Source: an uncultured Clostridia bacterium (GTDB taxonomy: Bacteria > Bacillota > Clostridia > Oscillospirales > Butyricicoccaceae). From it: a DNA stretch of 64,000 bases. Below the pieces are notes generated by a model. The model was given only the letters and a program-made list of their open reading frames with translations, made no database searches and was not told the DNA's origin. Shown one piece after another: positions 23,452 through 43,956 of the stretch; position 1 is the stretch's first letter, and every line of letters begins with the position of its first letter. The translations under genes and the position numbers were made by a program. The stretch is from assembly GCA_945829445.1 (NCBI GenBank), contig CALZUY010000004.1:153-64152 (forward strand), read 5' to 3'.

Positions 23452-23470
23452 AAGACATCCTTTCTCCTGC

Positions 23471-27033: not shown

Positions 27034-27070
27034 TATCCCTGAATCCAATCCGTATCAGGCAAATGCCTGC

Positions 27071-27676: not shown

Positions 27677-27741
27677 TTTTGTTGTCCTCCTGAGAAGGAA
27701 GAGGCAATCTTAACGGCTTTCGGGCACATTAAGATGCTTAT

Positions 27742-27769
27742 ATCATACCATAAACAAAAATTTTGTCAA
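27742..27769 (-). promoter_or_regulatory. sigmaA-type promoter of oapA-dxs-tlyA-nadK-argR-recN(-tyrS)
   Basis: TTGACA-16-TATGAT with TG extension. Confidence 0.65.
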
Positions 27770-27842
27770 TGGAACGCGATTTGCTATTTCCCAATTCCGG
27801 TATCATTTCTTCCTGCGGTCTTCCAGTTGCTCCCGGCGCAGG

Positions 27843-28315
27843 TTGCATTTGATTATCCAATCCTATCCCACAGCATGGATGAACTTTGCGCTTGTTATCA
27901 TCAATCTGTATGATGTGAAAAAGCTGTTAAAGGGCAGCAAGCACGATCATTTCATTGAAAGCCTGCCAGATGACGCTTTCATCCGCTTTTTCTTAGAGAG
28001 CCATTTGGCTGACATCCATCAGTATTTCCCCGGCTATGCTACCTCTAAGAACTGAAAAAACATACATCGTCTGCTGTGGTGACACACCTGCGGGTGTTTT
28101 GATCGGAGAATCGGCGTCTGATGGGATTATGAACATCTCTCTCGATTATACAACGCCAATGTACAGGGATTGTTCGGTTGGCGAATATCTTTACAACGAA
28201 CTGAGACACTGCGGAATCAAAGAGCTTGTTTTGGTGTGATGCTTCGAAGCATAAAACTTATCTGAAAAAAATGGGCTTTGAAAAAAAGAATAATCTGTAT
28301 ATGAAGAGATTATAA
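27843..28315 (+). pseudogene. 5'-truncated, frameshifted YgjV-like membrane/GNAT-like gene
   Basis: Homology runs across three pieces: IIQSYPTAWMN... / YIVCCGDTPAG...LDYTTPMYRDCSVG / YLKKMGF..KNNLYMKRL; no start codon or RBS; family call from recall. Confidence 0.55.
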
Positions 28316-28328
28316 TTTAATTTGGCGG

Positions 28329-28372
28329 AAAAAAGCCGCATCCAATGCCGTTCGGCAGTTGGATGCGGCTTT
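28329..28372. terminator. Bidirectional terminator after guaD
   Basis: AAAGCCGCATCCAA/TTGGATGCGGCTTT inverted repeat. Confidence 0.8.
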
Positions 28373-28381
28373 CATCATGTT

Positions 28382-29662: not shown

Positions 29663-30116
29663 AGCAATTCAGCCTCCTTTCCATATGCAAAGCATTGCAA
29701 TCCTGTTTCATCCATTTTAACAGAGAATGGACCGGCAAGTAAAGCATGGTACACGTTGTTTCTGCAATCAGCGTGGTTTTAAATTCCTCGATGCTGTTCA
29801 GCGCTTCCATTGTACCGAACATCTTAACGGGTGTAAAGTGCGTGTAATGACATTCAATATTCATAATGCGGTAATCCACCGCGCGCACCTTTCCGTCCAA
29901 TAAGAGATAGACGCGGTCAACAGGATCTCCTTCGTGAATGAAGGCTTGATTGGCATCGACCGTGAGAATATGGATATCTTCAAATAACCATATCGGTGCA
30001 TTGTGCAGCAGTCGAAAAAGATAATCCGCCCGTTCATCCGGAAGCTCTTTTATCAGCTGTGACAATCGTCCCTGACTGCTTAACATGTGATCTTTTTCCA
30101 TGAGCTTCTCCTCCAA
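29625..30116 (-). pseudogene. Crp/Fnr regulator truncated after the cNMP-binding domain
   Basis: FIHEGD.V.RVYLLLDG and FGTMEAL..TTLIAET beta-barrel; no HTH; ORF runs into the guaD RBS. Confidence 0.65.
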
Positions 30117-30129
30117 TGCTCCGCTGAAA

Positions 30130-31317
30130 TCAAAGCAAACGATTTAGCAGGGAATGTCCAATGGTATTTTCCGGCATTGGAACGCCGAAATTCTCCGCAA
30201 TGGTAGCGCCGATGACGGCAAAGGTATCCTGCTCCTCCAGTTCCCCGCTTCCCTGCATCGAGGGCGACCAGGCAAGAAATGGAACCTTTTCACGGGTGTG
30301 GTCGGTACCGGTATAGGTCGGATCATTGCCATGATCCGCAGTCAGAATCAGGAGATCATCCGCCTTCAGCTTGGGCAGCAGATCGCCCAGCTTGCGGTCA
30401 AATGCCTCAATTTCACGCGCATATCCGTCCGGGTTGCGGCGATGTCCCCAAAGGGCATCGAAATCAACCAGATTGACAAAGCACAGACCGGTAAAATCTG
30501 TATCCGCTGTTGCAATCGTCTGCTCCATGCCGTGTACAGAGCTTTTGGATTTCTGCGCATTGGTAATGCCTTCCTCTGCAAAAATATCGACAATTTTTCC
30601 GATGGAAAGGACATCATAGCCGTGATCCTTCAGTACATTCAGGACAGTACGTCCATATGGTTTGAGGGCATAGTCATGGCGGTTGCTCGTGCGCTTGAAT
30701 TCCCCTTTTTTCTTTCCGGTATACGGGCGTGCAATGACGCGACCAACCTTCCACTCGGGGCGCATGGTCAGCTCGCGGGCAATTTCACAATAATGATACA
30801 GATTGTCCAGGCCCATGGTCTCCTCATTGCCGCACATCTGCAAAACAGAATCTGCAGATGTGTATACAATCAGATGACCGGTTGCAATTTCCTCTTCCGC
30901 CAGCTCCTCAAGAATTTCTGTGCCGCTGGCGCTTTTATTGCCGATGATTTTGCGTCCGGTGCGCTTTTCCAGTTCCGCAATCAGCTCCGGCGGGAATCCG
31001 GTATCCGTAAAGGTCTGAAATGGTTCCGTAATGTGCAGCCCCATCATTTCCCAGTGTCCGGTCATGGTATCCTTGCCGCAGCTGCGTTCGCACAGCTTTG
31101 CGTAATAACCCATCGGATTTTCGGCAGGGTTAACCTGTACCAGCGGGTGCAGATTTGCAAGCCCCAGCTTTTGCAGGTTCGGGATGTTCAATTCCGGGAC
31201 ACTTTGCGAGATATGTCCCAGTGTATCAACACCGGTGTCACCATATTCCGGAGAATCCGGCATGGCACCGATCCCAAGGGAATCGAGCACAATGGTAAAA
31301 ATGCGTTTATATTTCAT
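30130..31317 (-). CDS. deoB: Phosphopentomutase
   Basis: [51 protein letters not shown]. Confidence 0.97.
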
Positions 31318-31401
31318 AAAAACTCCTTTTCCGTCCGAATAATCCGGATCGCTGCGATGCGGATGGAGCCGAAGCCCACTCTGTTCGCAGTAAATTGGAT
31401 G

Positions 31402-31755
31402 TTAGTGGGAACCTTTCTTATAGGGAACGCCATTTGCCTTCGGGGTTGCAGAGCGTCCCACAAAGACGACAAGAATGATAATGGTAAGCACGTACGGAAT
31501 CATGCTGATAATCTGTGACGGAATCAGTTCACCCCCGCCGAGGATAACAGCCAGAGCCTGTGCACAGCCAAACAGCAGGCATGCGGCATATACACCGTGG
31601 GGCTTCCATTTGCCGAAGATGACTGCTGCCATCGCAATAAAGCCCTGGCCGGAAATTGCTGTCGGTGAAAAGTGTGAAATAATGCCCAGTGTTACGGTTG
31701 CGCCGCCAAAGCCTGCGAGTACGCCGGAAAGCGTGGTGCAGACATAGCGGTACTT
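31402..31755 (-). pseudogene. C-terminal fragment of nucleoside ABC permease (NupQ/RnsD type)
   Basis: KYRYVCTTLSGVLAGFGGA...GQGFIAMAAVIFGKWKP...PYVLTIIIL...PKANGVPY with no start. Confidence 0.85.
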
Positions 31756-31930
31756 GACTGGTCATTGATACCGCCCGTATCTGTAACCATCGTTACTTTA
31801 AATCAATCTGCGGAACACATGTGCTTCCCTGCTGTTCTTCCAGCTTTTTGTGCTGCCGATTTACAGCCAGTGAGCAGCATGCATCCAGCTATGGCTGCAC
31901 AGCGGCATTGCAGCATTTTCCTTTTTTCAT
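31756..31930 (-). pseudogene. N-terminal fragment of BMP-family nucleoside-binding lipoprotein
   Basis: GGAGG RBS, MKK, lipobox-like LLTGC, FKVTMVTDTGGINDQS; frameshifted and cut at 31756. Confidence 0.8.
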
Positions 31931-31948
31931 GATGATTCCTCCCTGCGC

Positions 31949-32661
31949 TTACAGCTTTATCGCTGTTTCCAATGCAACACCAATCATCTGGCCAAACGTG
32001 CTGCGGCGTTCATCGGCTGACAGATGGGTATCCTTATAGATATGATCGGAAACAGTCATCATTGCCAGCGCCTGCTTGTGTGCCTGTGCCGCATTCAGAT
32101 ACAGTGCAGCGACCTCCATCTCGGCACACAGTACGCCCATCCTGCGCCATGCATCGTTGTAATTGGGATTTGCATTGTAAAATACATCCGATGTAATGAC
32201 ATTGCCGACATCCACCGGAATGTTCTGTGCCTGTGCCGCTTCAATTGCCGCCTGCATAACCGGATAGCTTGCAATGGGAGCAAATGTTCCCGGCAGCTGG
32301 AACTGTGCGGCATAGTTTGAATCGGTGCATGCGCCCATTGCAATCACCAGATCACCCAGCTCCATATCATCCTGCAGCGCACCCGCAGAACCGATGCGAA
32401 TGATGGTGTCTACATCATAAAAATGATACAATTCATAGGTGTACAGTCCGAGCGACGGCATTCCCATGCCGGCACCCATAACAGAAACTTCCCTTCCCTT
32501 ATAGGTGCCGGTGTATCCCAGCATGTTTCATACTGAATTGAAACATTTCGCGTCTTCCAAATAGGTTTCCGCGATCAGTTTTGCACGCAGCGGATCTCCC
32601 GGCATCAGCACAGTCTTTGCGATTTCGCTTTTTTTGCGGCATTGTGTGCAGTCGGTGTCAC
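31949..32661 (-). pseudogene. deoD: Purine nucleoside phosphorylase DeoD, inactivated
   Basis: [10 protein letters not shown] / [15 protein letters not shown]...FNSV*NMLGYTG...GMGMPS...EME; -1 frameshift near 32627 and TGA at 32528-32530 where Arg is conserved. Confidence 0.85.
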
Positions 32662-33443
32662 ACTCTTTTCTCCTTTTCTCGCTCTATCAGCTTCCCGATT
32701 GCTCTGACAGCAGTTCTCACTGCCAGATCGGTATCATGTGCCTGCGGATTGCTCAGCCCGCGCTTTGCACGCTCCTGATTGGCGAGCACCAGCAAAACCG
32801 TACCAATTCGTACACGCAGGCAGCTTGCGACAACAAACAGTGCAGCGGATTCCATCTCAGACGCCAGCGCGCCGCACCGAATCCATGCTTCCCATTTGTC
32901 CATCAGCTCGTAGCTGACCGGCTTGACTTCCGGCTCATGCTGGCCGTAAAAAGAATCTTTGCACTGCACAACGCCGACATAGTGTGTTGCCTTCAGTTCT
33001 TCAGCAGCTTCCGCGAGCGCCTGAACCACTGTTACATCAGCAACAGCCGGGAACTCAATCGGTGCATATTCCTTGCTGGTACCTTCCATGCGGATCGCAC
33101 CGCTCGCAATGACCAGATCTCCGCCCATAATCTCCGGCTGCATACCGCCGCTCGTCCCAACACGGATAAAGGTATGTGCACCGCAGTGCACCAGTTCCTC
33201 CAGCGCAATGGCTGCGGAAGGACCTCCGATTCCGGTGGAAGTCACGCTCACCTTTGTACCGTTCAGTTCACCCGTGTATGTCACAAATTCGCGGCTGTCA
33301 GCCATCAGAACAGCGTTGTCGAGATATTCCGCAATTTTTTTGCAGCGCTTAGGGTCGCCTGTCAGGATCACATAACCGCCAACCTGATCCGGTTTCAATC
33401 CGATATGATACTGATAACCAGAGCCTTCTGCATAATCAATCAT
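32658..33443 (-). CDS. udp: Uridine phosphorylase
   Basis: [38 protein letters not shown]. Confidence 0.95.
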
Positions 33444-33908
33444 ACTGTCTCCTCCTCTGTCTGTTTCGGGATTCTCTTACCTCATCGAGTCTTATTTTTC
33501 TGCATTTGGTTGCAACACTATGCACATCAGAGTACAATGTCTCTTACCATTTTAACCTTACCCTCTGATTTTGTATAAAATGTTAATTTTCATTGCACTC
33601 AGACCGTCAAATTCAATGAGCTTGCATAAAATATATCACTTTCTCAAGAGGCGAAAAAGGACACATGTCCCTTTCCGTTTCTTTTCTATAGTTTATACAA
33701 ATTTTGGAACAAAGTTTTGTATAGATACACAAAAACACATTGCAGATGTCTAAACCAGTGAAAGATTAAGGTTTTATATATTTAGGACAGACTTTTCTGC
33801 GGTTTTTATGATACAGCCCCGGTCTTCGCCCCGGCGTATTCCTCCGGTTTCCAATTGTTTGCATCCGTTGCTGATGTATGTTACAATACGGGAAACTACA
33901 TCGGAGGA

Positions 33909-34373
33909 ATGGATATGAAAAAGATTTACCTTGCAGGCTTTGATGTATTTTATCCGGATGCAATTCAACGCGGTGAGCGGATGAAGGCTGCGTGCAAAGA
34001 ACGGAATCTGTGCGGGCTGTTTCCATGTGATAATCACGCGGACAATGCCCATGACATCTTTCAGGGAAATGTGGATCTGATTCGTCAGGCAGATATCGTT
34101 GTTGCAAATTTAAACTGGTTCCGCGGACAGGAAATGGACTGCGGAACAGCATTTGAAATCGGTTATGCATATGCCATGGGCAAGGATATCTGGGGGTATC
34201 TCGATGATGATACGCCAATGGTGGAACAACTGGGAGAAATAGATGAAAACGGCTTTTCCGTGGAAAACTTCGGTGCTCCTGTCAACCTCATGATTGCACA
34301 ATCAAGCCATATTGTTTGCGGTTCCTTCACTGACTGCCTGGATGCCGTCAGGAAGCATCTGGATGAATCCTGA
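33909..34373 (+). CDS. Nucleoside 2-deoxyribosyltransferase family protein
   Basis: KIYLAGFDVF, ADIVVANL, DCGTAFEIGYAYAMGK, NLMI; GGAGG RBS. Confidence 0.9.
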   Translation: MDMKKIYLAGFDVFYPDAIQRGERMKAACKERNLCGLFPCDNHADNAHDIFQGNVDLIRQADIVVANLNWFRGQEMDCGTAFEIGYAYAMGKDIWGYLDDDTPMVEQLGEIDENGFSVENFGAPVNLMIAQSSHIVCGSFTDCLDAVRKHLDES

Positions 34374-34496
34374 AGAATAATTGGAAGCTGTAATCCCCTT
34401 TGATATATATAATTATAACACATTTGGAGCATGTGCGGTCACCTGCAATATTCCGCTCATGATATGCTATCGAAAATCAGCGATGAGTCATCTTGA

Positions 34497-34555
34497 ACAC
34501 AAAACACCGAACCGCTGCAAAACAGCAAATGGTTCGGTGTTTCATTTTGTGTTTT
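34497..34555. terminator. Bidirectional terminator between ndt and hppA
   Basis: AAACACCGAACC/GGTTCGGTGTTT inverted repeat between convergent genes. Confidence 0.75.
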
Positions 34556-34607
34556 GACTATTTAACCCGGACAGTGGACAGAAAAACTCTCACGATCTCG
34601 AAAGCCC

Positions 34608-36776
34608 TTATTTTAACAGGCTGCTGATCCAGCTCCAGAGATTGTACTGGCTGAAAATTGATACTGTGACCAGGGAGATATTTGCCATAATTTTGATGAA
34701 GATATCCAGACAGGGACCTACGGTATCCTTTAACGGATCACCTACGGTGTCACCGACAACAGCGGCCTTGTGTGCTTCCGAGCCCTTGCTGTGCCCTTCG
34801 ATTGCTCCGGTTTCAATGTACTTTTTGGCATTGTCCCACGCACCGCCCGCATTGCCGGTAAAAATAGCCAGCATGATAGCACAGATGGTAGAGCCGATCA
34901 AAATACCGCCGACAAATTCAGGGCCAAATACAAAACCACACAGGACAGGGACAATCACTGCCAACAGGGCCGGAACCTTCATCTCACCGATGGCACCTTT
35001 GGACGAAATTTCAATACATGTCTTATAATCCGGCTTGGCAGTACCGGCCAGAATACCAGGAATTTCACGGAACTGACGGCGAACCTCATCAACCATCTTG
35101 CGGGCAGCTTTGGCAACTGCTTCGATCAGGATGCCGGAAAAGATAAATGGAAGCGCGCCGCCGATAATAACACCGGCCAGCGTCATCGGGTTGATGACAT
35201 TTAATACCAGATCCGTGTTGGGATCATTGTAAGAAAAGATATACGAGATCATCAGTGCCAGAGCAGCCAGCGCACCGGAACCAATGGCAAAGCCCTTGCC
35301 GATTGCCGCAGTCGTATTGCCAACCGAATCCAGTTCATCGGTGATCTCACGGACTTGTGGATCGAGACCTGCCATTTCAGCGATACCACCGGCATTGTCA
35401 GAAATAGGACCATAGGTATCTACAGATACAGTAGCAGTTACGAAGGACAGCATGCCCAGAGCACTCATGGCAACACCATAAAAACCGGATACCGTGTATG
35501 CAATGATGATGCCGAGACCGAGCACTATGCAGGGCAGCATACAGGAACGCATTCCCAGAGACATACCCTGTGTAATGGTCAATGCAGTACCTTCCAGCGA
35601 TGCATTTGCAACCTTTTTGGTCGGATCATAGTCAGCGCTGGTATAATATTCAGCAATCATACCCATCAGGATACCGGCGACAATGCCGACCGCAGCACCG
35701 ATAAACGGAGAAATAAATCCGAGCTTGAAATTCAGGCCAGCCAGATTTTCTCCCTTGAATAACAGATATGTAACGACAAAACCAGCAATCAAAGTAATAC
35801 CGGCTGACAGCCATGTAGCTGTATTCAACTCCCGGTGCGGATGGTCAGAGACCTTTTTAAATAGAAGAAAAGCGATGCCAAGAATACATGCAATCAGACC
35901 ACAGCCTGCAAATGCCAGCGGATAAAGGTACAGTTTTTGCAGCATCTCGACAGAAATTTCACCGGTTGTAGCTGCGGAAGTGGCGTACAGATGGAATCCA
36001 AGTAATACAGCGGAAGAAATGGCGCCGACATAGCTCTCCAAAAGGTCAGAACCAAGGCCGGCTACATCGCCTACATTATCGCCTACATTGTCGGCAATTG
36101 TTGCAGGGTTGCGCGGGTCATCTTCCGGGATATTTGCTTCCGTCTTGCCGACCAGATCAGCACCCATATCAGCAGCCTTTGTATAGATACCGCCGCCGAC
36201 ACGGTTGAACATGGCGATGATCGAGCAGCCCAGCGCATAACCGGAAAAAGTCATTGTAAATGGAATAAATGTGACGCCCAGCCAGTTTGTATGCTCAGAC
36301 AAATCCTGCAACTGGCCGAGCCCGATGCCAAAGATGAGATATACAAGAAAGACGCCCAGCAGCGCGAAGCCACCTACACAAAGCCCCATGACAGAACCGC
36401 CCTGGAAAGCGACCTTCAGGGTATCGCCCAGGCTTTTGGTAGTACGGGCCTTATTGGATACACGTACGTTGGAATATGTAGCAATTTTCATACCGATGAA
36501 ACCGGCAGATGCGCTCATACCCGCACCGATGATAAAAGCAACTCCACACTGCCATGACACCGCAAGAGACAGCAGAATGGCTACAATGATGACAACGATA
36601 CACAATATGCGGTATTCATAGTGAATGAACGCGTTTGCACCCACGCGGATTGCAGACGCAATTTCAGACATCTGCTCCGTGCCTTCGTCCATTTTCTTTA
36701 CGGAGAAAAAGTTGAAAACGGCATAGGATAACGAAAGAACCGATGCAAACAAGACGAGAATCAACACACCATTCAT
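34608..36776 (-). CDS. hppA: Membrane pyrophosphatase, K+-dependent type (probable Na+-PPase)
   Basis: GGGIYTKAADMGADLVGK, EDDPRNPATIADNVGDNVGD, GNTTAAIGKG (Ala = K+-dependent determinant), GDTVGDPLKD. Confidence 0.95.
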   Translation of the reverse strand: MNGVLILVLFASVLSLSYAVFNFFSVKKMDEGTEQMSEIASAIRVGANAFIHYEYRILCIVVIIVAILLSLAVSWQCGVAFIIGAGMSASAGFIGMKIATYSNVRVSNKARTTKSLGDTLKVAFQGGSVMGLCVGGFALLGVFLVYLIFGIGLGQLQDLSEHTNWLGVTFIPFTMTFSGYALGCSIIAMFNRVGGGIYTKAADMGADLVGKTEANIPEDDPRNPATIADNVGDNVGDVAGLGSDLLESYVGAISSAVLLGFHLYATSAATTGEISVEMLQKLYLYPLAFAGCGLIACILGIAFLLFKKVSDHPHRELNTATWLSAGITLIAGFVVTYLLFKGENLAGLNFKLGFISPFIGAAVGIVAGILMGMIAEYYTSADYDPTKKVANASLEGTALTITQGMSLGMRSCMLPCIVLGLGIIIAYTVSGFYGVAMSALGMLSFVTATVSVDTYGPISDNAGGIAEMAGLDPQVREITDELDSVGNTTAAIGKGFAIGSGALAALALMISYIFSYNDPNTDLVLNVINPMTLAGVIIGGALPFIFSGILIEAVAKAARKMVDEVRRQFREIPGILAGTAKPDYKTCIEISSKGAIGEMKVPALLAVIVPVLCGFVFGPEFVGGILIGSTICAIMLAIFTGNAGGAWDNAKKYIETGAIEGHSKGSEAHKAAVVGDTVGDPLKDTVGPCLDIFIKIMANISLVTVSIFSQYNLWSWISSLLK

Positions 36777-37039
36777 ACTGAAACCTCCTTTGAACAACGA
36801 TATGTTGTTACAAAAAATATCTAAGAGAATTATATCATACGGAAGGTATTTTATCCACTTATTTATTATGAGAAAAGATAACGTATCATAAATGACCTGT
36901 GTAAGTGTCCAATCATTGCCCGCCGACCATACAAAATCCCGAATGCTTGCTGCATCCGGGAAAAGATCATGATTCCGTTAAAGCATGTATTAGATTGGGG
37001 TTTCAGGACATCAACTGTCCACATTCTCATTGGAAGATT

Positions 37040-37213
37040 TTATCCACATCCTTCATACAGTCCGGAAATCAAATCGTGCTGTTCAGGAGTATGAATATCT
37101 ATGGTACAACCAGATTCGACCTCACTCATATCATGATTACATGACACCATTTGAGAAGCGATATGGTTTGGTATAATTAGGTGGTGGCGTTACAAAAATG
37201 CTTGACCACTACA
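37040..37213 (+). mobile_element. IS3-family transposase 3' remnant with right inverted repeat
   Basis: Frame ending at 37176: AVQEYEYLWYNQIRPHSYHDYMTPFEKRYGLV* (WYN..RPHS....TP integrase-core tail), then GTTACAAAAATGCTTGACCACTACA ending in CA. Confidence 0.7.
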
Positions 37214-37363
37214 CAGGTTCTAGAATAAGAGTAATCAGAAAATCCAGTATAGCGCATCTCTTTGAGTGGAATAGATTATCGTCACTGTTTTTCTGGTATT
37301 GAGAAGATTTCGATCTTATTTTAGTATCAATTGAGCATTTACTTAATTTATTAAGCTCTAATG

Positions 37364-37409
37364 AAAAAGCACCGAATCAAAAGGGATTTGACCCAAATGA
37401 TTCGGTGCT
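37364..37409 (-). terminator. Intrinsic terminator downstream of ole
   Basis: AGCACCGAATCA/TGATTCGGTGCT stem followed by T5 on minus strand. Confidence 0.8.
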
Positions 37410-37424
37410 ATATTTTTAATCAAG

Positions 37425-38037
37425 GGTGGCAGCAGGCAGAGTAAATCTTACGGCTTGAGGTTCGGTTGGATTTCCCCGCAGGCGACCAGCCGTTGCCAGC
37501 TGGCGGTTTCCCATTATGGCCTGTGCCGGGTCGTCACCGATTCCGGGACCGAATTGCCACTTAGTCCGTACTGCAATCCTCTGCCTGCCCAATTACGACA
37601 GCCTAGGTGTTTTCCACGACAGTTGATCAGGTTCTTAGCCTCTTTTGCAAGAGAAGTTTCACAGATCGATACAGATTAAGCCATGGCCGTGGCATAAACC
37701 TGCGGATATCCGCTCCCCTTAACTCACTCAAGGCAGGCTACACTGCACACAGCGTCGTTGGACTCCAAAGAGTACTTTGCACCGCATTGCAGGTTCTTCT
37801 CCTGCCCCGTAAAGCATCCATCAATCCGAAGATGTTTAGGTGCTCCACAGCAACAGGTCTCCACGGAGAAAGGAATCATTCTTATGCCATTAAAAACTAT
37901 CCTAAATCCTTAACCCCCAGCATCCACCCCAAACTGGGCGTAAGAAGCAAACACCAGGGACTTCATCGATATGCCCGTCTACGGATTTTTAGGCCCGTCT
38001 TAGGAACGTGAAAAACTGACTAGAATACTGCGCCACC
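37425..38037 (-). ncRNA. ole: OLE RNA (ornate, large, extremophilic RNA), ~613 nt
   Basis: Minus strand reads GCAGTATTCTAGTCAG...GGGCCTAAAAATCCGT...GGGCATATCGATGAAGTCCCTGGTG...ACGCCCAG...GCTGGGGGTTAAGG...CCGTGGAGACC...GGATTGCAGTACGGACTAAGTGG...GGGAAACCGCC, blocks matching the recalled OLE consensus; 5' GGTGGCGCAG pairs with 3' CTGCTGCCACC; size and position after ispA are canonical; no credible ORF. Confidence 0.93.
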
Positions 38038-38044
38038 GCTACAT

Positions 38045-38073
38045 AATTTACCATATTGTTTGTAAATTTGCAA
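38045..38073 (-). promoter_or_regulatory. sigmaA-type promoter immediately upstream of ole
   Basis: TTGCAA-17-TAAATT with TG extension; predicted start site within a few nt of the OLE 5' end. Confidence 0.6.
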
Positions 38074-38112: not shown

Positions 38113-39003
38113 TCAGTATTTGCGCTCCGCCAGCGTGCGTGCAAGTGCCGGCAGCATACCGGCATCTGAAAACGGTGCCAATGCATGGATTGCCTGTTCT
38201 GACAGTTCGCGTACCAGTTCATGGCAGCGTGCAATGCCCAGCAGGGATGGGTATGTACTCTTACCGTTTTCTGCGTCCGAGCCAATCGGCTTGCCCAGTG
38301 CTTCCTCATCGCCCTCAATGTCCAGAATGTCATCCTGAACCTGGAACGCAAGGCCAATGCAACGCGCATATTCCAATGCAGCCTCTGTCTGTTCCGCGGT
38401 TGCGCCGCCGATCAGGCAGCCGAGCTGTGCCGCCACACAAATAAGGGCACCGGTCTTGAGTTCCTGAAGTGTTTTAAGCTGGTCAAGCGAAATCTGAGTT
38501 TCCTCCGCCTGCATGTCCAGAACCTGACCGCCGATCATGCCTTCCATACCGGAAGCACGCGACAGCGCGCGGATGGCCTTGAGCTGTACCTCAGCACCGA
38601 CCAGAGCTGTGTTTGCCGGATCAGATGCGGTCTCAAACGCCAGATTTAACAGACCGTCGCCCGCAAGAACCGCCATAGCTTCGCCATAGACCTTGTGGTT
38701 GGTCGGCTTGCCGCGGCGCAGATCGTCATCATCCATACACGGCAGGTCGTCGTGAATGAGTGAATACGTATGAATCATTTCCAATGCGCAGGCAAACGGC
38801 AGTGCTGCTTCGATATTCCCACCACTCAGACGGCAGAATTCCAGCACCAATGCCGGACGAAGCCGCTTGCCGCCTGCCATCGCAGAATAGCGGCAGGCAT
38901 CAAAAATTACACTCTGGCCTTTATCCTCCTGCGACTGCAAGTATTCCAGCAGCTTTTTTTCTACCATTGTGCTGTATGCCGCAAGCTGTTCATTCAGTGT
39001 CAT
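38113..39003 (-). CDS. ispA: Farnesyl-diphosphate synthase / geranyltranstransferase
   Basis: GGKRLRP, HDDLPCMDDDDLRRG, GQVLD, KTGA, FQVQDDILD. Confidence 0.96.
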   Translation of the reverse strand: MTLNEQLAAYSTMVEKKLLEYLQSQEDKGQSVIFDACRYSAMAGGKRLRPALVLEFCRLSGGNIEAALPFACALEMIHTYSLIHDDLPCMDDDDLRRGKPTNHKVYGEAMAVLAGDGLLNLAFETASDPANTALVGAEVQLKAIRALSRASGMEGMIGGQVLDMQAEETQISLDQLKTLQELKTGALICVAAQLGCLIGGATAEQTEAALEYARCIGLAFQVQDDILDIEGDEEALGKPIGSDAENGKSTYPSLLGIARCHELVRELSEQAIHALAPFSDAGMLPALARTLAERKY

Positions 39004-39006
39004 TGG

Positions 39007-39237
39007 TCATTCCCCTTCCTGCGCATCGAACGGCACTTCAACTTCTTCGCCGTTTTGTGTCGTCACCATCGTTACTTTCTGTTCCGCGCGGTCGAGCAAT
39101 CCGGACAGATAAGCCGAAAGCTTGGTCCCTTCCTCGAACAGCGCCATGCTTTTATCCAGCGGTGCCTCACCGGCTTCCAATTGCGTTACAATTTCTTCCA
39201 GGCGCTTCATCGCCTGTTCAAATGTCATGTCTTCCAT
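39007..39237 (-). CDS. xseB: Exodeoxyribonuclease VII small subunit
   Basis: TFEQAMKRLEEIV..LE.G...LD.S...FEEG. Confidence 0.95.
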   Translation of the reverse strand: MEDMTFEQAMKRLEEIVTQLEAGEAPLDKSMALFEEGTKLSAYLSGLLDRAEQKVTMVTTQNGEEVEVPFDAQEGE

Positions 39238-39248
39238 TATCTGTATCC

Positions 39249-40457
39249 TCAGCATTTCCGCTTAATCTGCTTTACTGTACAAACCGCGCCGCCTTTGGCA
39301 AACCGGACAAAAATTTCATCGTCGCGGCGTAGTTTGGCGCTGCTCGCAACAACCGTTCCGTCCTTCGTCACGACAGAATAACCGCGCGCCAGAACCTTGA
39401 GCGGGCTGTAAGCGTCGAGATATGCCGCCTGCCGGACAAATTCCTGCCTTCTCACCGCCAATATCTGCTGTATGGCGGCAGTCATCTGTCCGGTAACATG
39501 TTCCAGTTCAAAGCGTTTGTCCTGAATATATCCCATAGGGGTGCGCAGCTTTCTGCGCTTGTCCAATGCGTCCAGCTGTGCCCGTTTGCCCTGCAAAATT
39601 GCTGTCATATCACTGAGCAAGGCATTGTCCGCCGTGCGCAGAAAACGCCGGAGCTCTGCTGCATCCGGCACACAGATTTCTGCCGCATTGGATGGTGTGG
39701 AAGCGCGTGCATCTGCGGCAAAATCCGATATCGTAACATCCGGCTCGTGCCCCACGGCAGAAATCACCGGAATTTCCGATGCTGCAATGGCACGCGCTAC
39801 AATTTCTTCGTTAAACGCCCAGAGATCCTCCAGAGATCCGCCGCCGCGGCCTGTAATGATTACATCCGCTTCTCCGCGCCGGTTGACTGCTGCAATTGCA
39901 TTTGCGATATCAGCTGCTGCCCCTTCGCCCTGTACGAGGACAGGATAAATCTGTACTTTGGCCAGCGGATATCGGCGTTTGAGGATGCGCAGCATATCGC
40001 GCACCGCTGCGCCGGTCGGTGAAGTCACAATCGCAATCGTCTGCGGCAGACGCGGAAGCGGCTTTTTACGCGCTTCGTCGAACAGTCCTTCGGTATACAG
40101 GCGCTGCTTGAGCTGTTCGAACGCAATGGTCAGCGCACCGATGCCATCCGGCATCATGTCTGCAATATACATCTGATACTGCCCATACTTTGGATAACAG
40201 CTGATGCGTCCGCGTGCGATGACCTTCATGCCATTTTCCGGTCGAAAGCGCAGCCGTGCAGCGTCTGAACGGAACATCACTGCTGAAAGTACGCCGTCTT
40301 TGTCTTTGAGGGTCAGATATCTGTGACCGGAAGAATGTGCCTTGTAGTTGGAAATTTCGCCCTGAACATACAGGTTGCGAAACGGTTCATGTTCCTCCAG
40401 CATCAACTTAATCGCATGATTGACCTGCGAAACCGTATAAACTGTCTGTTGTTTCAT
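39249..40457 (-). CDS. xseA: Exodeoxyribonuclease VII large subunit
   Basis: GEISN...SSGH.Y.TLKD, TSPTGAAVRD, RGGGSLEDLWAFNEE, SAVGHE.D. Confidence 0.97.
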   Translation of the reverse strand: MKQQTVYTVSQVNHAIKLMLEEHEPFRNLYVQGEISNYKAHSSGHRYLTLKDKDGVLSAVMFRSDAARLRFRPENGMKVIARGRISCYPKYGQYQMYIADMMPDGIGALTIAFEQLKQRLYTEGLFDEARKKPLPRLPQTIAIVTSPTGAAVRDMLRILKRRYPLAKVQIYPVLVQGEGAAADIANAIAAVNRRGEADVIITGRGGGSLEDLWAFNEEIVARAIAASEIPVISAVGHEPDVTISDFAADARASTPSNAAEICVPDAAELRRFLRTADNALLSDMTAILQGKRAQLDALDKRRKLRTPMGYIQDKRFELEHVTGQMTAAIQQILAVRRQEFVRQAAYLDAYSPLKVLARGYSVVTKDGTVVASSAKLRRDDEIFVRFAKGGAVCTVKQIKRKC

Positions 40458-41392
40458 AGCAGCTCCCCGCTCAACAGTGCCGCCAGCACCGCAACGCCTA
40501 CCGCGTTGTCACCCGACAGCGTCGGTTCGGCAAAGTGTGCACCAAATGCATCGCGCATGCGCTGCTGGAGCCGACGATTGGACATGACACCGCCCGCACA
40601 CAACACTGGCAGATGCAGTTCTTCCACAGCCTGCCGTGTCGCATCCATCACGGCGCTGCCGACAATATCAATGGTATAGCGCGCAACGGTTTCACGCGGC
40701 GCGCCTGTCTGATACAGTTTTTCAATTTTATTCTGTGCACCGGACAGTGAAAAATGGCTGCCCGACACCTTTGGACGAAACGGCTTTTCCGGATGCGTGC
40801 AGGCATTTGCCAGCTGTTCCAGCTGTGCGCCAGCCGGGAACGAAAGCCCCAGCAGATTCCCGGCACGGTCAATCAACTGGCCTGCTGCCAGGTCGTCCGT
40901 GCCGCCAATGATTTCCGCCGAAAACAGCTGTCCATCGGGTTTGACATACAGCAGTTCTGTTGTGCCGCCGGACAAATGCCATGCCAGAAATGGCTCACGA
41001 AGCAGATGCAGGGCATCCGCTGACAGCGCTGCCGCCGCCAAATGTCCCTGTTGATGTGAGACCTCATAGAACGGTATGCCCTGTGCATGTGCCATACTGC
41101 GTGCAACACCTGCACCGGCAAGGAAGCACGGCATATAAGACCCTTCAACTGCACGCGGCCGGGTACTTGCAGCAATTGCCGTTACCTGTGTCCCGAACCC
41201 TTTTTCCAGTTCAAGAATGCGCTCCGGTAAGTGCTGCACATGCTGAAACAGCGCATCGCTCTGCCGCAGCCCGATGCGTCCTTCCGGCACCTCCAGCAGC
41301 CGTCCGGAATTATGCCACGCACGGCTCTCACTGTCAAACAGTGCCGCAGAGGTGCGGTAATTGGAGGTATCGACGCCGAAAAATCGTGCCAT
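40454..41392 (-). CDS. TsaD/Kae1-like (glycoprotease family) paralog
   Basis: GVDTSNY, SHQQGH, HLSGGTT, DLAAGQLIDR, AGGVMSN, GDNAVG. Confidence 0.8.
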   Translation of the reverse strand: MARFFGVDTSNYRTSAALFDSESRAWHNSGRLLEVPEGRIGLRQSDALFQHVQHLPERILELEKGFGTQVTAIAASTRPRAVEGSYMPCFLAGAGVARSMAHAQGIPFYEVSHQQGHLAAAALSADALHLLREPFLAWHLSGGTTELLYVKPDGQLFSAEIIGGTDDLAAGQLIDRAGNLLGLSFPAGAQLEQLANACTHPEKPFRPKVSGSHFSLSGAQNKIEKLYQTGAPRETVARYTIDIVGSAVMDATRQAVEELHLPVLCAGGVMSNRRLQQRMRDAFGAHFAEPTLSGDNAVGVAVLAALLSGELL

Positions 41393-41841
41393 CAGTCTGC
41401 CGCCAGCTCACGCGCTGCCGCACCGAGTACACCGTTGATATATGCCGGAACTTCCTCGGATTCATATTTTTTCGCCAGTTCCACAGCTTCATCAATCGCT
41501 GCTCCGACCGGAACATCTTCGACATACTGCATTTCATACAGTGCGAGCCGCAGCAGCGACATGGTCATGTGGGACAGACGGTTGGTATTCCAGTTGGTGG
41601 AATGCTTTTTAACCACTGCGTCCAGCTCCGCACAATGCGCACAGACGCCCATCACTGTATTGCGAATATACACCTTCTGATCCTCCGGCAGTTCACCCGC
41701 ATACAGCACGACATCGCCCGCCAATGAATCCATGACCGACTGTTCCAGACGGTCAGACAGCAGTTCCTTGTCACTGAACTGCTTGAAGCTCAGTTCAAAA
41801 ACCAGATGAAGTGCAATTTCTCTTGCTTCTTTTCTTCCCAC
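41392..41841 (-). CDS. nusB: Transcription antitermination factor NusB
   Basis: GTG start, RKEAREIAL, LLRLALYE, AIDEAVELAK.Y, YINGVLG. Confidence 0.95.
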   Translation of the reverse strand: MGRKEAREIALHLVFELSFKQFSDKELLSDRLEQSVMDSLAGDVVLYAGELPEDQKVYIRNTVMGVCAHCAELDAVVKKHSTNWNTNRLSHMTMSLLRLALYEMQYVEDVPVGAAIDEAVELAKKYESEEVPAYINGVLGAAARELAAD

Positions 41842-42049
41842 AGAAGTACCTCCGTATTGTGCCCGCCGTTCTGCGGCAGATCGGCACATTCATTTCGTTT
41901 TATGATTTATGCATTATTATACAACATATTGATGAGAATTGAAACCATAATCTGGTTTCAATCGGTATTCCTCTTTATAAATTGTTGTATTTGCTTTTCT
42001 GTCTTTCTCAGATTACAGGAACCACAATTCTTCCCGACGAAAAAGCCTG

Positions 42050-42093
42050 ATATAACAGAATAATTCTATCACATGGCAGGGCATTTGGCAAAT
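42050..42093 (-). repeat. Left copy of 44-bp inverted repeat, containing an outward promoter
   Basis: 37/44 identity (ungapped, counted by hand) to reverse complement of 44899-44942; minus strand TTGCCA-17-TAGAAT. Confidence 0.8.
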
Positions 42094-42104
42094 AGAAGGT
42101 GTAC

Positions 42105-42151
42105 AATAAAACCCCATAGACTGTGTGGTACACAAATCTATGGGGGTTTAT
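42105..42151. terminator. Terminator after mgtE
   Basis: AAACCCCATAGA/TCTATGGGGTTT inverted repeat. Confidence 0.78.
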
Positions 42152-42169
42152 TCATGATGATTGGGCCGA

Positions 42170-43582
42170 TTACAGCGTGCGGATCAGCAATGCCCATGCC
42201 AGACCATAGTAGGTCACAACTGCCACCAGGTCATTGATGGTGGTAATCAGCGGGCCGGATGCAACTGCCGGGTCAATCTTGAGCTTTTTAAATATAAGGG
42301 GAATGGTTGTTCCGCAGACACTGGACAGAATCATGGAAATCAACAGAGCAAAACCTGTACAGAAGGAAACAGAAAACGCAAGTGCTGCCGTCTCCCCTTT
42401 CAACAGGAATAAATACAGGCCAATCAATACAAAGGAGAGTGTGCCAAGGGCCAGGCCGTTACACAGGCCAACCCGCGCTTCCTTTGCTACGAGGGAAAGC
42501 TTCTGACGGAATGACAAATGCTCATCCATCAGCACCCGGATGGTAACAGCCAGGGACTGCGTTCCCACATTGCCTGCCATGTCCAGAATCAGAGACTGGA
42601 AGCAGACCACCAAAGTCAGACTCGCGACGACTTCTTCAAAAAGACCGACCACACTGGATACCAGAAGTCCCAAACCCAGCAGTACAATCAGCCAGGGAAG
42701 CCGCTTGGCAATGCTCTTCTTTAAGGGCTCCTGCAAATCTTCCTCTGCGGTCAGGCCTGCCAGCTTCGCATAGTCCTCTCCCATTTCCTCATCGACCAAC
42801 CGGGTAATGTCCTGAGCAGTCAGTACACCGGTTAGTTTATTCTGGGCGTCGAGTACCGGTATAGAGTCCTCAGAATAATCTTTAATCCGTTCGATACAGT
42901 CTTCTGTCTGTTCACTGGCGTAAACATACGGATAGGAAGTCACTGTGATCTCATCCAGTGCGGTTCCATCCCGGGCAATAATCAAATCCTTCAGATCAAT
43001 CGCACCGACCAGCGTTTCATCCTCGTCGACAACATAAATCGTAGAAATGTTGTCATTTTCAGCAGCCTGATCCACCAATTCCCGCATTGCCTGCCGAATG
43101 CCGATACCGGTATGGACAGAAATGAAGTTCGTGGTCATCTTGCTGCCGATTTCATCTTCGTCAAATGAACTGAGCAGTACAATTTCTCTCCTGACATCGG
43201 CATCCATCAGATCGAGAAGAATATTGCGTTCCTGCTTTTCCATCTGGCACAGATAATCTGCAGCAATTGCAGGTTCCAGCTGAGACAGGATTTCCACCTG
43301 CTTCCGAATACTCAGCTCTCCGATATAATCATTCAGCCTGTCCGAATAGGCAAGCACATTGGCCAAAGCCTGTGTTCCCAGCACGCTGTAGAGCTTGCAG
43401 CGTTCCTCTTTTTTCAGCAGTTCGATTGCTGCTGCGATATCATTTTCATGATAGGAAAGAATCCGATCCTCCATGAGCTTGGGCGTGAGATTGCTTCTTA
43501 CAATTTCCGCAATTTCGTTCTTATAATCGCGATGCTGTGTGGAAATTCCGATTCCTTCCGGATGATTCTTTTTTGTGTTCAT
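42170..43582 (-). CDS. mgtE: Magnesium transporter MgtE
   Basis: CBS pair, KRLPWL, MAGNVGTQSL, DPAVASGPLITTIND; GGAGG RBS before ATG 43582. Confidence 0.95.
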   Translation of the reverse strand: MNTKKNHPEGIGISTQHRDYKNEIAEIVRSNLTPKLMEDRILSYHENDIAAAIELLKKEERCKLYSVLGTQALANVLAYSDRLNDYIGELSIRKQVEILSQLEPAIAADYLCQMEKQERNILLDLMDADVRREIVLLSSFDEDEIGSKMTTNFISVHTGIGIRQAMRELVDQAAENDNISTIYVVDEDETLVGAIDLKDLIIARDGTALDEITVTSYPYVYASEQTEDCIERIKDYSEDSIPVLDAQNKLTGVLTAQDITRLVDEEMGEDYAKLAGLTAEEDLQEPLKKSIAKRLPWLIVLLGLGLLVSSVVGLFEEVVASLTLVVCFQSLILDMAGNVGTQSLAVTIRVLMDEHLSFRQKLSLVAKEARVGLCNGLALGTLSFVLIGLYLFLLKGETAALAFSVSFCTGFALLISMILSSVCGTTIPLIFKKLKIDPAVASGPLITTINDLVAVVTYYGLAWALLIRTL

Positions 43583-43956
43583 TGTCCTTCGCCTCCTTTG
43601 CACATCCAGCATAAAACGAATCGAGTGATTCGCCGTGGCAAAGTCAGGCATAGATTGGCTCCGTTACAGGCAAAAATGGGCATAAAAATACCATTGTCAC
43701 CTGTAATGCAACCTACGCTACACCTGCTCTGCAATGATGTAGTGCAGTTTTCAAACCGGACAATGGCGACCTATAATTGTTGGCGCAGCAAAGCGCCGTC
43801 AGAACACAGACGATATGCGGCTGCACAACTTCTGACAGTATAGGAATCCCATGCCCGAACTTCGACTACAACTACTACCGTCCATGATCTCACCTCACAA
43901 AAATGAATTTGCTGATTTCGTGTGTTCATTATATCAAATACCATCCTGAGATTCAA
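43583..43956 (-). promoter_or_regulatory. mgtE promoter and ~340-nt structured leader containing a 28-codon uORF
   Basis: TTGAAT-17-TATAAT at 43928-43956; uORF 43799-43885 with GAGGTG RBS; several stems. Confidence 0.55.

What the first reader, a model, noticed from the sequence alone, without database searches (positions are those of the whole stretch)
37425..38037. Large structured ncRNA gene hidden between ORFs: an OLE RNA
Seen: ~613 nt with no credible ORF, self-pairing ends (5' GGTGGCGCAG with 3' CTGCTGCCACC), UUCG and GAAA hairpins, a promoter ending at its 5' end and a terminator just past its 3' end. Established: OLE RNAs are ~610 nt, follow nusB-xseA-xseB-ispA, and form a membrane-bound RNP with OapA. 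In Halalkalibacterium (Bacillus) halodurans they are linked to cold, alcohol and Mg2+ stress, and their biochemical activity is unknown. Inference: this is an intact OLE gene in a mesophilic gut anaerobe, likely missed by ORF-only annotation.
Basis: partly seen in the sequence, partly recalled or inferred. Interest (0 to 1): 0.85.

Follow-up and report, generated by a model that had tools for sequence, protein, structure and literature searches.

The report
Genuine, expressed OLE RNA gene
The region is a textbook, highly expressed copy of the already known OLE RNA from an uncultured pig-gut Clostridia bacterium; its only unusual feature is that an old rearrangement has moved it about 10 kb away from the gene for its membrane partner protein OapA.

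Summary
Window 38052..37410 (minus strand) matches the Rfam OLE model RF01071 end to end (457.6 bits, gathering score 50, E 4e-131). It is the full-length type. It keeps P7/P8, all four dimerisation loops, the OapB site (P13 GUGA tetraloop plus bulge) and the OapC k-turn nucleotides. Across 7 related OLEs, 92 of 171 predicted pairs keep pairing through changes on both sides.

Pig-gut and wastewater metatranscriptomes show a discrete, very abundant RNA confined to about 37426-38031, with zero depth in both flanks. In one run depth is about 800x, against 9-22x for ispA and about 8x for oapA. Adapter-joined contig ends lie at 37426/37427 and 38029.

The upstream genes are mgtE-nusB-tsaD-like-xseA-xseB-ispA, as expected. 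The one departure is that oapA is not adjacent. It lies 9.7 kb downstream (27676..27071), intact, with its own strong promoter. A block carrying a Na+-pyrophosphatase gene and nucleoside-salvage genes separates them, with an IS3 transposase scar next to ole. In a sample of 98 OLE loci, 94 have oapA immediately downstream.

This is a known RNA class that is already documented in gut anaerobes, so it is a correct identification with low novelty.

The parts
37410..38052 (-). OLE RNA gene, as the full extent of the Rfam RF01071 match. The stable RNA itself is about 38037..37426, roughly 605-612 nt.
   Evidence: 457.6 bits, model 1-616/616. RNA depth is confined to 37420-38031, with adapter-joined contig ends at 37426/37427 and 38029.
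38045..38073 (-). Putative dedicated sigma-70 promoter of ole: -35 TTGCAA, 17-nt spacer, TG-extended -10 TAAATT. The predicted start lies at about 38039-38037, which is the first base of P1.
   Evidence: Read from the sequence. Promoters of the same design and position occur in L001, L006 and L018, and less clearly in L036 and L075. It is below the threshold of the scanner. Its function is inferred, not shown.
37363..37409 (-). Intrinsic terminator after ole: a 12-bp stem AGCACCGAAUCA/UGAUUCGGUGCU with an 18-nt loop, then UUUUU. It is not part of the stable RNA.
   Evidence: dG -26.4, z -5.9; I5; zero RNA depth at 37386-37419. It is absent from the relatives, where OLE runs straight into oapA.
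37983..37993 (-). P4 A-rich loop (CCUAAAAAUCC), dimerisation centre 1.
   Evidence: Its role comes from the cryo-EM work summarised in PMC12265935.
37933..37941 (-). P5.1 loop (ACGCCCAGU), kissing partner of the P6.1 loop.
37884..37891 (-). P6.1 loop (AAUGGCAU), kissing partner of the P5.1 loop.
37683..37690 (-). P9 apical loop with the palindromic GGCC, a self-kissing dimerisation centre.
37532..37539 (-). P13 GUGA tetraloop above a bulged stem, the primary OapB-binding site. The P14.1 GCAA tetraloop at 37498-37491 is the secondary site.
   Evidence: The site is defined in PMC7936274.
37907..37970 (-). P5 with its flanking joining regions (AUCGAUGAAGU ... GGUUAAGGA), which can refold into the k-turn bound by OapC/YbxF.
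   Evidence: The k-turn is defined in PMC9723947.
27071..27676 (-). oapA: a 201-aa membrane protein with four hydrophobic segments, a basic N-terminus and a D123-x-x-x-D127 motif. It is the obligate OLE partner and is unlinked from ole here.
   Evidence: tblastn, 57% identity to L036 OapA, E 6e-52. (all 40 invariant columns kept). (weak CNNM hit, 4.3e-5). (hydropathy). (transcribed at about 8x).
27742..27769 (-). Own promoter of oapA: TTGACA, 16 nt, TG-extended TATGAT, 11 of 12 matches.
   Evidence: RNA depth is zero across 27510-28445 upstream of it.
27677..37362 (-). A 9.7-kb block separating ole from oapA. On the minus strand it carries the Na+-translocating pyrophosphatase (36797..34608), two PNP/UDP-family phosphorylases (33443..32658 and 32524..31949), a phosphopentomutase-like metalloenzyme (31317..30130), a cNMP-binding regulator (30116..29625) and an amidohydrolase (29662..28382). 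On the plus strand it carries a nucleoside 2-deoxyribosyltransferase (33855..34373). Each end has about 0.6 kb of non-coding sequence.
   Evidence: GC is 45-52% against 53-57% in the flanking cluster. The region is tiled at even depth by four independent metagenome assemblies and the oapA-side junction is confirmed by L081.
37030..37213 (+). IS3-family transposase C-terminal remnant, a rearrangement scar that ends at 37213 with ...CA.
   Evidence: NF033516, profile positions 334-367 of 369, E 2.7e-5. (rve_3 and rve_2, weak). (depth roughly doubles over 36916-37349, and alternative continuations branch at 37213 in two runs, as expected of a repeat).
38113..43651 (-). Upstream conserved cluster: ispA (39003..38113), xseB (39255..39007), xseA (40457..39249), a TsaD/Kae1-like gene (41392..40454), nusB (41889..41392) and mgtE (43651..42170).
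21290..27048 (-). The remainder of the canonical cluster after oapA: dxs (27048..25129), tlyA/rrmJ-like (about 25157..24354), nadK (24427..23471), argR (23451..22999) and recN (22975..21290).
   Evidence: The order is the same as in L001, L006, L018, L036 and L075.

Best explanation
This is a functional, full-length OLE (ornate, large, extremophilic) RNA gene of an uncultured pig-gut member of the Oscillospirales (class Clostridia).

Shown here. The sequence and secondary structure are those of the family. The RNA accumulates in vivo as a discrete species of about 610 nt, far more abundant than the neighbouring mRNAs. Its stable 3' end lies at the base of helix P1, not at the terminator. The partner gene oapA is intact and transcribed, but from a separate unit 9.7 kb away.

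Inferred from the sequence. ole is transcribed mainly from its own TG-extended promoter, which ends 7 nt before P1. Transcription stops at the intrinsic terminator at 37409-37363, and the 3' tail is trimmed back to P1.

Inferred from work on Halalkalibacterium halodurans and Clostridium OLE RNAs (PMC12265935, PMC7936274, PMC9723947). Two OLE RNAs dimerise through the P4, P5.1/P6.1 and P9 loops, all of which are conserved here. The four-helix membrane protein OapA tethers the dimer to the membrane, and possibly threads it through. OapB and OapC bind at the P13 tetraloop and the P5 k-turn. The particle helps the cell cope with stresses such as alcohols, cold, excess Mg2+ and poor carbon sources. 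The biochemical activity of the RNA itself is still unknown.

The separation of ole from oapA is best explained as a lineage-specific insertion or rearrangement mediated by an IS3 element. Each gene now has its own promoter and ole has its own terminator, so the complex must assemble in trans.
For: Family membership: (RF01071, 457.6 bits, E 4e-131, full model, not truncated). Structure under selection: (171 pairs, 92 kept through changes on both sides across 7 sequences that are only about 70-74% identical). Functional motifs present: interpreted.

Expression: (depth in the hundreds to tens of thousands over 37404-37988, 0-22 in the flanks; in X29 an exact-match contig at 797x against 22x and 9.5x for ispA). 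(four more runs at >=98% identity: depth only within 37420-38031; adapter junctions at 37426, 37427 and 38029).

Separate transcripts: (zero depth at 36585-37403 and at 27510-28445). Promoter. Terminator. Intact OapA. Canonical context.

The rearrangement is real and carries an IS3 scar. Adjacency is the norm elsewhere: (94 of 98).
Against: All RNA evidence comes from assembled metatranscriptome contigs, not raw reads. Depth values are assembler k-mer depths, and in the conserved segments they are inflated by OLE RNAs of other community members. The ends rest on adapter-joined contigs from three runs (3' end) and one run (5' end).

The promoter matches only 8 of 12 consensus positions, and no transcription start was mapped. 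One X29 contig (37945-38389, 22x) crosses the ispA-ole junction, so some read-through from ispA occurs. Processing from a longer transcript, as in H. halodurans, could therefore contribute.

Nothing here tests OapA binding, dimerisation, membrane localisation or any phenotype in this organism. Whether the genome encodes OapB or OapC is unknown, because only the window is available.
Confidence: 0.93

Rival explanations
1. ole has no promoter of its own. It is transcribed as the tail of the nusB-...-ispA operon, as in the polycistronic H. halodurans cluster, and the stable RNA is cut out by processing. Its high abundance would then reflect stability only.
For: An X29 contig at 37945-38389 spans the ispA/ole junction at 22x. 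There is no terminator between ispA and ole in the window. The H. halodurans cluster is polycistronic (PMC12265935). The candidate promoter matches only 8 of 12 positions.
Against: A TG-extended promoter with a 17-nt spacer ends 6-8 nt before the first conserved OLE base in the window and in L001, L006 and L018. L006 and L018 also have a terminator between ispA and ole, so ole must have its own promoter in those relatives. OLE depth is 36-80 times that of ispA. The two routes are not mutually exclusive.
Confidence: 0.2
2. The gene is an orphaned, decaying OLE relic. The rearrangement that removed oapA from its side made it non-functional, and it is only transcribed passively.
For: ole and oapA are unlinked and an IS3 scar lies beside ole. 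[quoted passage not shown]
Against: The full-length model match shows no truncation, and every dimerisation loop and protein-binding motif is intact. The RNA is extremely abundant with defined ends. oapA keeps all 40 invariant residues, has an 11-of-12 promoter and is transcribed. The locus is 97-100% conserved across many pig-gut samples.
Confidence: 0.03
3. The region encodes a protein (for example the 134-aa ORF at 37607-38011 on the plus strand), or it is merely a structured 3' UTR or attenuator of a neighbouring gene.
For: An ORF of 134 aa exists on the opposite strand.
Against: The ORFs have no protein-family match. The substitution pattern among relatives is compensatory base-pair change, not codon-like. 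The covariance-model E-value is 4e-131. The RNA is terminated and is followed by an IS scar, not by a regulated gene.
Confidence: 0.01

Closest known systems
OLE RNA (Rfam RF01071), full-length type as defined by Fernando and Breaker 2024. Reference members are from Halalkalibacterium halodurans, Clostridium acetobutylicum and C. botulinum.
   Same: Length is about 610 nt. All helices P1-P15 align to the model, and P7 and P8 are present, so it is not variant 1 or variant 2. The P4, P5.1/P6.1 and P9 dimerisation loops are conserved, as are the GUGA tetraloop and bulge in P13 and the k-turn nucleotides at P5. It lies after ispA in the nusB-xseAB-ispA ... dxs-tlyA-nadK-argR-recN cluster, the RNA is very abundant, and an OapA with a DxxxD motif is encoded in the genome.
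   Different: oapA is not the immediate downstream neighbour; it lies 9.7 kb away behind eight unrelated genes and an IS3 scar. ole has its own intrinsic terminator and oapA has its own promoter. There are lineage-specific insertions at the tips of P7 (13 nt with a UUCG loop) and P8 (22 nt). The nearest OLE sampled from representative genomes is only about 74% identical. A TsaD-like gene stands where folD usually does.
OLE loci of related gut Oscillospirales MAGs: L001 (Agathobaculum sp.), L036, L006 and L018.
   Same: The promoter design directly before P1 is the same, the flanking genes are the same, and the OapA proteins are 40-57% identical to the window's OapA.
   Different: In those loci OLE runs directly into oapA with no terminator. 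L018 has one extra gene between them. None has a pyrophosphatase gene or an IS fragment nearby.
Other large ornate bacterial ncRNAs (ROOL, GOLLD, raiA motif RNA).
   Same: They are large, highly structured, abundant non-coding RNAs of Bacillota whose biochemistry is unknown. ROOL and GOLLD also form homo-oligomers (PMC12286853 abstract).
   Different: They share no sequence or structure with this RNA. The window gives no Rfam hit to any of them, and OLE is the only family above its gathering score in the 64 kb. They have no OapA-type membrane partner.

Membership tests
OLE RNA (RF01071) | Sequence plus secondary structure matches the family covariance model above the curated gathering score, over the full length. 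| tested here: met
   457.6 bits against a gathering score of 50, E 4e-131, model positions 1-616 of 616, no truncation.
OLE RNA (RF01071) | About 600 nt with roughly 25 base-paired substructures supported by covariation. | tested here: met
   613 nt between the P1 ends. RNAalifold on 7 clade members gives 171 pairs, 92 of them kept through changes on both sides.
OLE RNA (RF01071) | Conserved loops that mediate RNA dimerisation: the P4 A-rich loop, the complementary P5.1/P6.1 loops and the palindromic P9 loop. | tested here: met
   CCUAAAAAUCC, ACGCCCAGU, AAUGGCAU and ACGGCCAU are present at the aligned positions. Dimerisation itself was not tested.
OLE RNA, full-length type (as opposed to variant 1 or variant 2) | P7, P8 and a long P9 are present, and the OapB site at the tip of P13 is present. 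| tested here: met
   The P7 and P8 regions of the model are aligned and even extended by 13-nt and 22-nt insertions. P9 has a single 1-nt deletion. P13 carries the GUGA loop and a bulge (type definitions).
OLE RNA (RF01071) | The host is a member of Bacillota, typically anaerobic and/or extremophilic. | tested here: met
   The closest IspA and OLE loci are Agathobaculum, Oscillospiraceae and Acutalibacteraceae MAGs. The sequence is found in pig-gut and wastewater metagenomes. The exact species was not identified.
OLE RNP system | The genome encodes OapA, a protein of about 200 aa with four transmembrane helices, a DxxxD motif and a basic cytoplasmic face. | tested here: met
   27676..27071 (-), 201 aa, E 6e-52 to L036 OapA. 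All 40 invariant columns are kept, including D123 and D127. Four hydrophobic segments and 9 K/R in the first 32 residues. Weak CNNM similarity, as the literature describes.
OLE RNP system | oapA is the immediate downstream neighbour of ole. This is typical of the system, not strictly defining. | tested here: not met
   The next gene after ole is a Na+-pyrophosphatase gene, and oapA is 9.7 kb away. In my sample, 94 of 98 OLE loci have oapA adjacent.
OLE RNP system | ole lies in the conserved cluster with nusB, xseA, xseB and ispA upstream and dxs, tlyA, nadK, argR and recN downstream. | tested here: met
   The cluster is complete but interrupted by the inserted block.
OLE RNA (RF01071) | The RNA is a very abundant, stable cellular species. 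| tested here: met
   Depth is about 800x against 9-22x (ispA) and about 8x (oapA) in X29. The RNA is discrete in eight RNA runs. The caveat is that these are contig depths.
OLE RNP system | RNA sites for the accessory proteins OapB (GNRA tetraloop and bulge in P13) and OapC (k-turn at P5), and the genes for those proteins. | tested here: inconclusive
   The RNA sites are present. The oapB and oapC genes could not be sought because only the 64-kb window is available.
OLE RNP system | OapA-dependent membrane localisation, and phenotypes under alcohol, cold, Mg2+ or carbon-source stress. | not testable with these tools
   This needs experiments in the organism or in a surrogate host. It is known only for H. 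halodurans.

The most novel reading that the evidence does not exclude
The split is more than a neutral scar. In this lineage OLE is made as a monocistronic RNA that is roughly 100 times more abundant than the oapA mRNA and assembles with OapA in trans. Its new neighbour, a membrane Na+-translocating pyrophosphatase that uses Mg-PPi, might be functionally coupled to the OLE particle. That would link OLE to PPi, Mg2+ and ion-gradient homeostasis, next to the PPi-releasing IspA and the Mg2+ channel MgtE in the same cluster.
Probability: 0.05. Interest if true: 0.5.

Novelty: already known. Interest (0 to 1): 0.22.

Why it matters
The identification is sound, and it is useful for annotation because a protein-only gene call would leave this 0.6-kb stretch blank. 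OLE remains one of the most intriguing bacterial RNAs: its biochemical function is unknown and it is possibly an integral membrane RNA.

This copy adds little to that question, for three reasons. The family is in Rfam. Thousands of members are catalogued, including many from gut anaerobes. And this copy is canonical in every feature tested.

There are two modest points of value. First, public pig-gut and wastewater metatranscriptomes show that the RNA is among the most abundant transcripts of its host in a natural community, with ends at the base of P1. Second, it is a natural case, found in about 4% of sampled loci, where ole and oapA are transcriptionally uncoupled. That shows co-transcription is not required and would make the organism convenient for testing trans-assembly.

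Tried and rejected
1. The first genome-collection scan used a two-block OLE pattern with the wrong spacer (21 N instead of 19) and found nothing. This was my error and carries no information.
2. An exact 39-mer from the variable P9 region found no representative genome. An exact-protein look-up of OapA found only two Logan contigs.
3. The consensus promoter/terminator scanner found neither the ole promoter nor its terminator. Both were established in other ways.
4. A 19-nt direct repeat (family D3, 27730-27748 and 36822-36840) looked like a possible duplication at the edges of the insert. It is only the similar -10 regions (GTATGATATAA) of the oapA and pyrophosphatase promoters, and I treat it as chance.
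5. The lower GC of the inserted block is suggestive of foreign origin but not conclusive, because the mgtE region is equally low.
6. I looked for a pyrophosphatase gene next to OLE in 200 other loci and found none. The juxtaposition is therefore lineage-specific and probably accidental.
7. ORFs inside the OLE region were scanned against Pfam, with no result.
8. Fragments at the oapA-side junction (27843-28239, plus strand) gave no family match, so their nature is unresolved.
9. Three of the 120 motif hits (L106, L170, L182) were not OLE by nhmmer and were excluded from the adjacency count.
10. The large protein searches, structure prediction and custom covariance models were not needed and were not used.

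Full report
OBSERVATION. A gathering-threshold scan of the whole 64-kb window against Rfam 15 returns exactly one family: OLE (RF01071) at 38052..37410 on the minus strand. The score is 457.6 bits against a gathering score of 50, E is 4e-131, and the match covers model positions 1-616 of 616 without truncation. The only ORFs in the interval are 51-134 aa, lie on both strands and have no protein-family support.

GGUGGC/GCCACC is P1, and it covaries in an alignment with six related OLE RNAs. The adjacent GCAG instead pairs with CUGU near 37600 (the P2 region), and the 3' CUGCCUGC belongs to a long-range stem with GGCAGGCAGAG. The UUCG hairpin sits in a 13-nt lineage-specific insertion at the tip of P7 (37833-37824), and the GAAA-type loops are the conserved ones of the family.

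The terminator is real. It has a 12-bp stem (37409-37398 with 37379-37368) followed by UUUUU, with dG -26.4 kcal/mol and z = -5.9, and none of 200 shuffles folds as well. The promoter is TTGCAA, 17 nt, TG-extended TAAATT, ending 7 nt before P1. At 8 of 12 matches the consensus scanner does not list it. However, promoters of the same design lie at the same distance from the first conserved base in L001, L006 and L018, and promoter-like elements lie upstream in L036 and L075. In L006 and L018 a terminator also separates ispA from ole.

WHAT IT IS. It is a canonical full-length OLE RNA. P7 and P8 are present and even extended (13-nt and 22-nt insertions), so it is neither of the shortened variants 1 and 2 described for the TANB77 and RF39 gut clades. 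The four dimerisation centres seen in the cryo-EM structures are all present at their aligned positions: the P4 A-rich loop CCUAAAAAUCC, the complementary P5.1 GCCCA and P6.1 UGGC loops, and the palindromic GGCC loop of P9. The primary OapB site (a GUGA tetraloop on a bulged P13) and the secondary site (a GCAA tetraloop on P14.1) are present. So are the conserved strands flanking P5 that refold into the OapC k-turn. Among seven OLE RNAs of this clade, which are only about 70-74% identical to the window's copy, RNAalifold predicts 171 pairs, of which 92 keep pairing through changes on both sides.

EXPRESSION. The sequence occurs at 97-100% k-mer identity in many pig-gut, faecal and wastewater metagenomes, and its OLE segment occurs in many metatranscriptomes. 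I laid the contigs of four RNA runs on 36.0-39.5 kb. Depth is in the hundreds to tens of thousands over 37404-37988 and 0-22 elsewhere. In run X29, an exact-match contig at 37588-37937 has depth 797, whereas the ispA contigs have 22 and 9.5 and the 0.8 kb downstream of the terminator has none.

At >=98% identity in four further runs, depth is confined to 37420-38031 and is zero on both sides. Contigs carry the library adapter, with the A/T-tailing base, joined at 37426 (X25), 37427 (X33) and 38029 (X25). X27 also has an adapter junction at 37426. The stable RNA therefore runs from about 38037 (the last few 5' bases are commonly lost in cDNA libraries) to 37426, which is 605-612 nt. It ends at the base of P1, and the terminator hairpin is not retained, which implies 3' trimming. 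These are contig data, not read data. The conserved segments also attract OLE RNAs of other community members, so the depths are semi-quantitative.

SURROUNDINGS. Upstream on the same strand lie mgtE, nusB, a TsaD/Kae1-like gene, xseA, xseB and ispA, which is the expected cluster. Downstream, however, there is no oapA. After the terminator come about 0.56 kb without an ORF, then a Na+-translocating pyrophosphatase gene (NF001954, 1042.7 bits), a nucleoside 2-deoxyribosyltransferase gene on the other strand, two PNP/UDP phosphorylase genes, a phosphopentomutase-like gene, a cNMP-binding regulator gene and an amidohydrolase gene.

In related loci the order is ispA-OLE-oapA-dxs-tlyA-nadK-argR-recN. 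Searching the window with those proteins finds oapA at 27676..27071, followed by dxs, tlyA, nadK, argR and recN, all on the minus strand. The window's OapA (201 aa) keeps all 40 columns that are invariant among six OapAs, including D79 and the N122-D123-V-V-G-D127 motif. It has four hydrophobic segments and a basic N-terminus. It also shows the weak CNNM similarity reported in the literature. Its promoter is near-consensus (TTGACA, 16 nt, TG-extended TATGAT, 11 of 12 matches), and it is transcribed at about 8x in X29. The 0.9 kb upstream of it has zero depth. ole and oapA are therefore separate transcription units.

HOW THE SPLIT AROSE. Between the ole terminator and the pyrophosphatase gene, on the plus strand, lies the last roughly 40 codons of an IS3-family transposase (NF033516, profile positions 334-367 of 369, E 2.7e-5, with weak rve_2 and rve_3 hits). 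In four independent metagenome assemblies the 26.5-39.5 kb stretch is tiled at even depth, which rules out a chimeric assembly. Depth roughly doubles over 36916-37349, and alternative continuations branch off at 37213 in two runs. This is the behaviour of a repeat whose end...CA as is typical of IS3, lies at 37213. An independent Logan contig also shows the amidohydrolase-oapA-dxs junction. The block has 45-52% GC against 53-57% for the flanking cluster. The most economical reading is an IS-associated insertion of about 9.7 kb between ole and oapA in this lineage.

HOW UNUSUAL THE SPLIT IS. A near-invariant 17-nt OLE motif retrieved 120 loci from representative genomes, of which 117 are OLE by nhmmer. 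Of the 98 true OLE loci with at least 1.5 kb of downstream sequence, 94 have oapA immediately downstream. One (L092, the same contig as L018) has a single intervening gene. Three (L096, L117, L138) have no oapA within 2-5 kb, and in two of those dxs follows OLE directly. None of the 200 loci held has a pyrophosphatase gene near OLE. The split is therefore rare, about 4%, but not unprecedented. The review literature calls oapA only the 'most common' downstream neighbour.

MECHANISM. Shown here are membership, structural conservation, abundance, transcript boundaries, an intact and expressed oapA, and transcriptional uncoupling. Inferred from the sequence is transcription from a dedicated promoter, termination at the hairpin and trimming to P1. 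A minor contribution from ispA read-through is indicated by one junction-spanning contig.

The following steps are transferred from H. halodurans and Clostridium work. OLE forms a homodimer through the conserved loops. OapA dimers bind it and hold it at the membrane, and possibly across it. OapB and OapC act as folding or assembly factors. The particle supports growth under alcohol, cold, Mg2+ and carbon-source stress, while the RNA's chemistry remains unknown. None of these steps could be tested here.

COMPARISON AND NOVELTY. This is a member of OLE by every criterion that could be tested. The only unmet expectation, adjacency of oapA, is typical rather than defining. OLE in gut anaerobes is well documented: there are 2,822 hits across Bacillota, including uncultured gut clades, and my motif scan returned many Oscillospiraceae, Ruminococcus and other gut MAG loci. 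The specific sequence is not close to any sampled representative, at about 74% identity at most, and the species could not be named. That makes it one more member, not a new kind.

VERDICT. The class is already known and the interest is low, at about 0.2. The modest added value is twofold. There is in-situ evidence that OLE is a hugely abundant, precisely bounded RNA in a gut commensal. There is also a clean natural example of ole and oapA being uncoupled by an IS3-associated insertion.

Noticed in passing
window 37030-37213 (+): C-terminal remnant of an IS3-family transposase (last ~40 codons; NF033516 E 2.7e-5). Metagenome depth roughly doubles here and alternative continuations branch at 37213, so intact or other partial copies exist elsewhere in this genome or community.
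   Followed up: partly
window 40454-41392 (-): A 312-aa TsaD/Kae1-like protein sits between nusB and xseA, where folD is usual in OLE clusters. It scores far below the TsaD equivalog cut-off (112.9 against 296 bits), so it is a divergent paralogue of unknown role.
   Followed up: no
window 42170-43651 (-): The Mg2+ channel gene mgtE (TIGR00400, 257.5 bits) lies directly upstream of nusB, on the same strand as ole. OLE RNP mutants are Mg2+-sensitive, and OapA is distantly related to the CNNM domain of the MpfA Mg2+ transporter, so the neighbourhood may be meaningful.
   Followed up: no
window 27843-28239 (+): Two overlapping ORF fragments (70 and 67 aa) lie in different frames in the non-coding gap between the amidohydrolase terminator and the oapA promoter. 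They look like a frameshifted gene remnant but match no Pfam family.
   Followed up: partly
window 28325-28375 (-): A clean intrinsic terminator (GCCGCAUCCAA...UUGGAUGCGGC followed by UUUUUU) closes the inserted block just after the amidohydrolase gene. The simple scanner missed it because of its long loop.
   Followed up: no
window 31949-32524 (-) and 32658-33443 (-): Two PNP/UDP-family nucleoside phosphorylase genes lie in tandem. The first ORF starts at profile position 35, so its start may be mis-called or it may be N-terminally truncated. With the phosphopentomutase-like, deoxyribosyltransferase and amidohydrolase genes they form a nucleoside-salvage cassette.
   Followed up: no
L096 (Ammoniphilus MAG) about 2842-5511 and L138 about 300-2756: In these two OLE loci dxs follows OLE directly, with no oapA in between or within 2-5 kb. 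These are further natural cases of ole without an adjacent oapA. Whether oapA exists elsewhere in those genomes is unknown.
   Followed up: partly
L013, L052, L065, L077, L160: Several hits to the ispA or OLE queries carry non-Bacillota labels (delta proteobacterium, Chthoniobacteraceae, Methylacidiphilaceae, Desulfovibrionaceae). L160 is an OLE-motif hit labelled Desulfovibrionaceae, which fits the published remark that the few non-Bacillota OLE hits reflect mis-binning or horizontal transfer.
   Followed up: no
window 37579-37917, RNA runs X26-X29: Many low-depth 'joints' that skip 70-340 nt inside OLE appear in the metatranscriptome contigs. They join conserved segments, and they are most simply de Bruijn-graph chimeras between OLE RNAs of different species rather than real deletions or splicing.
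   Followed up: no
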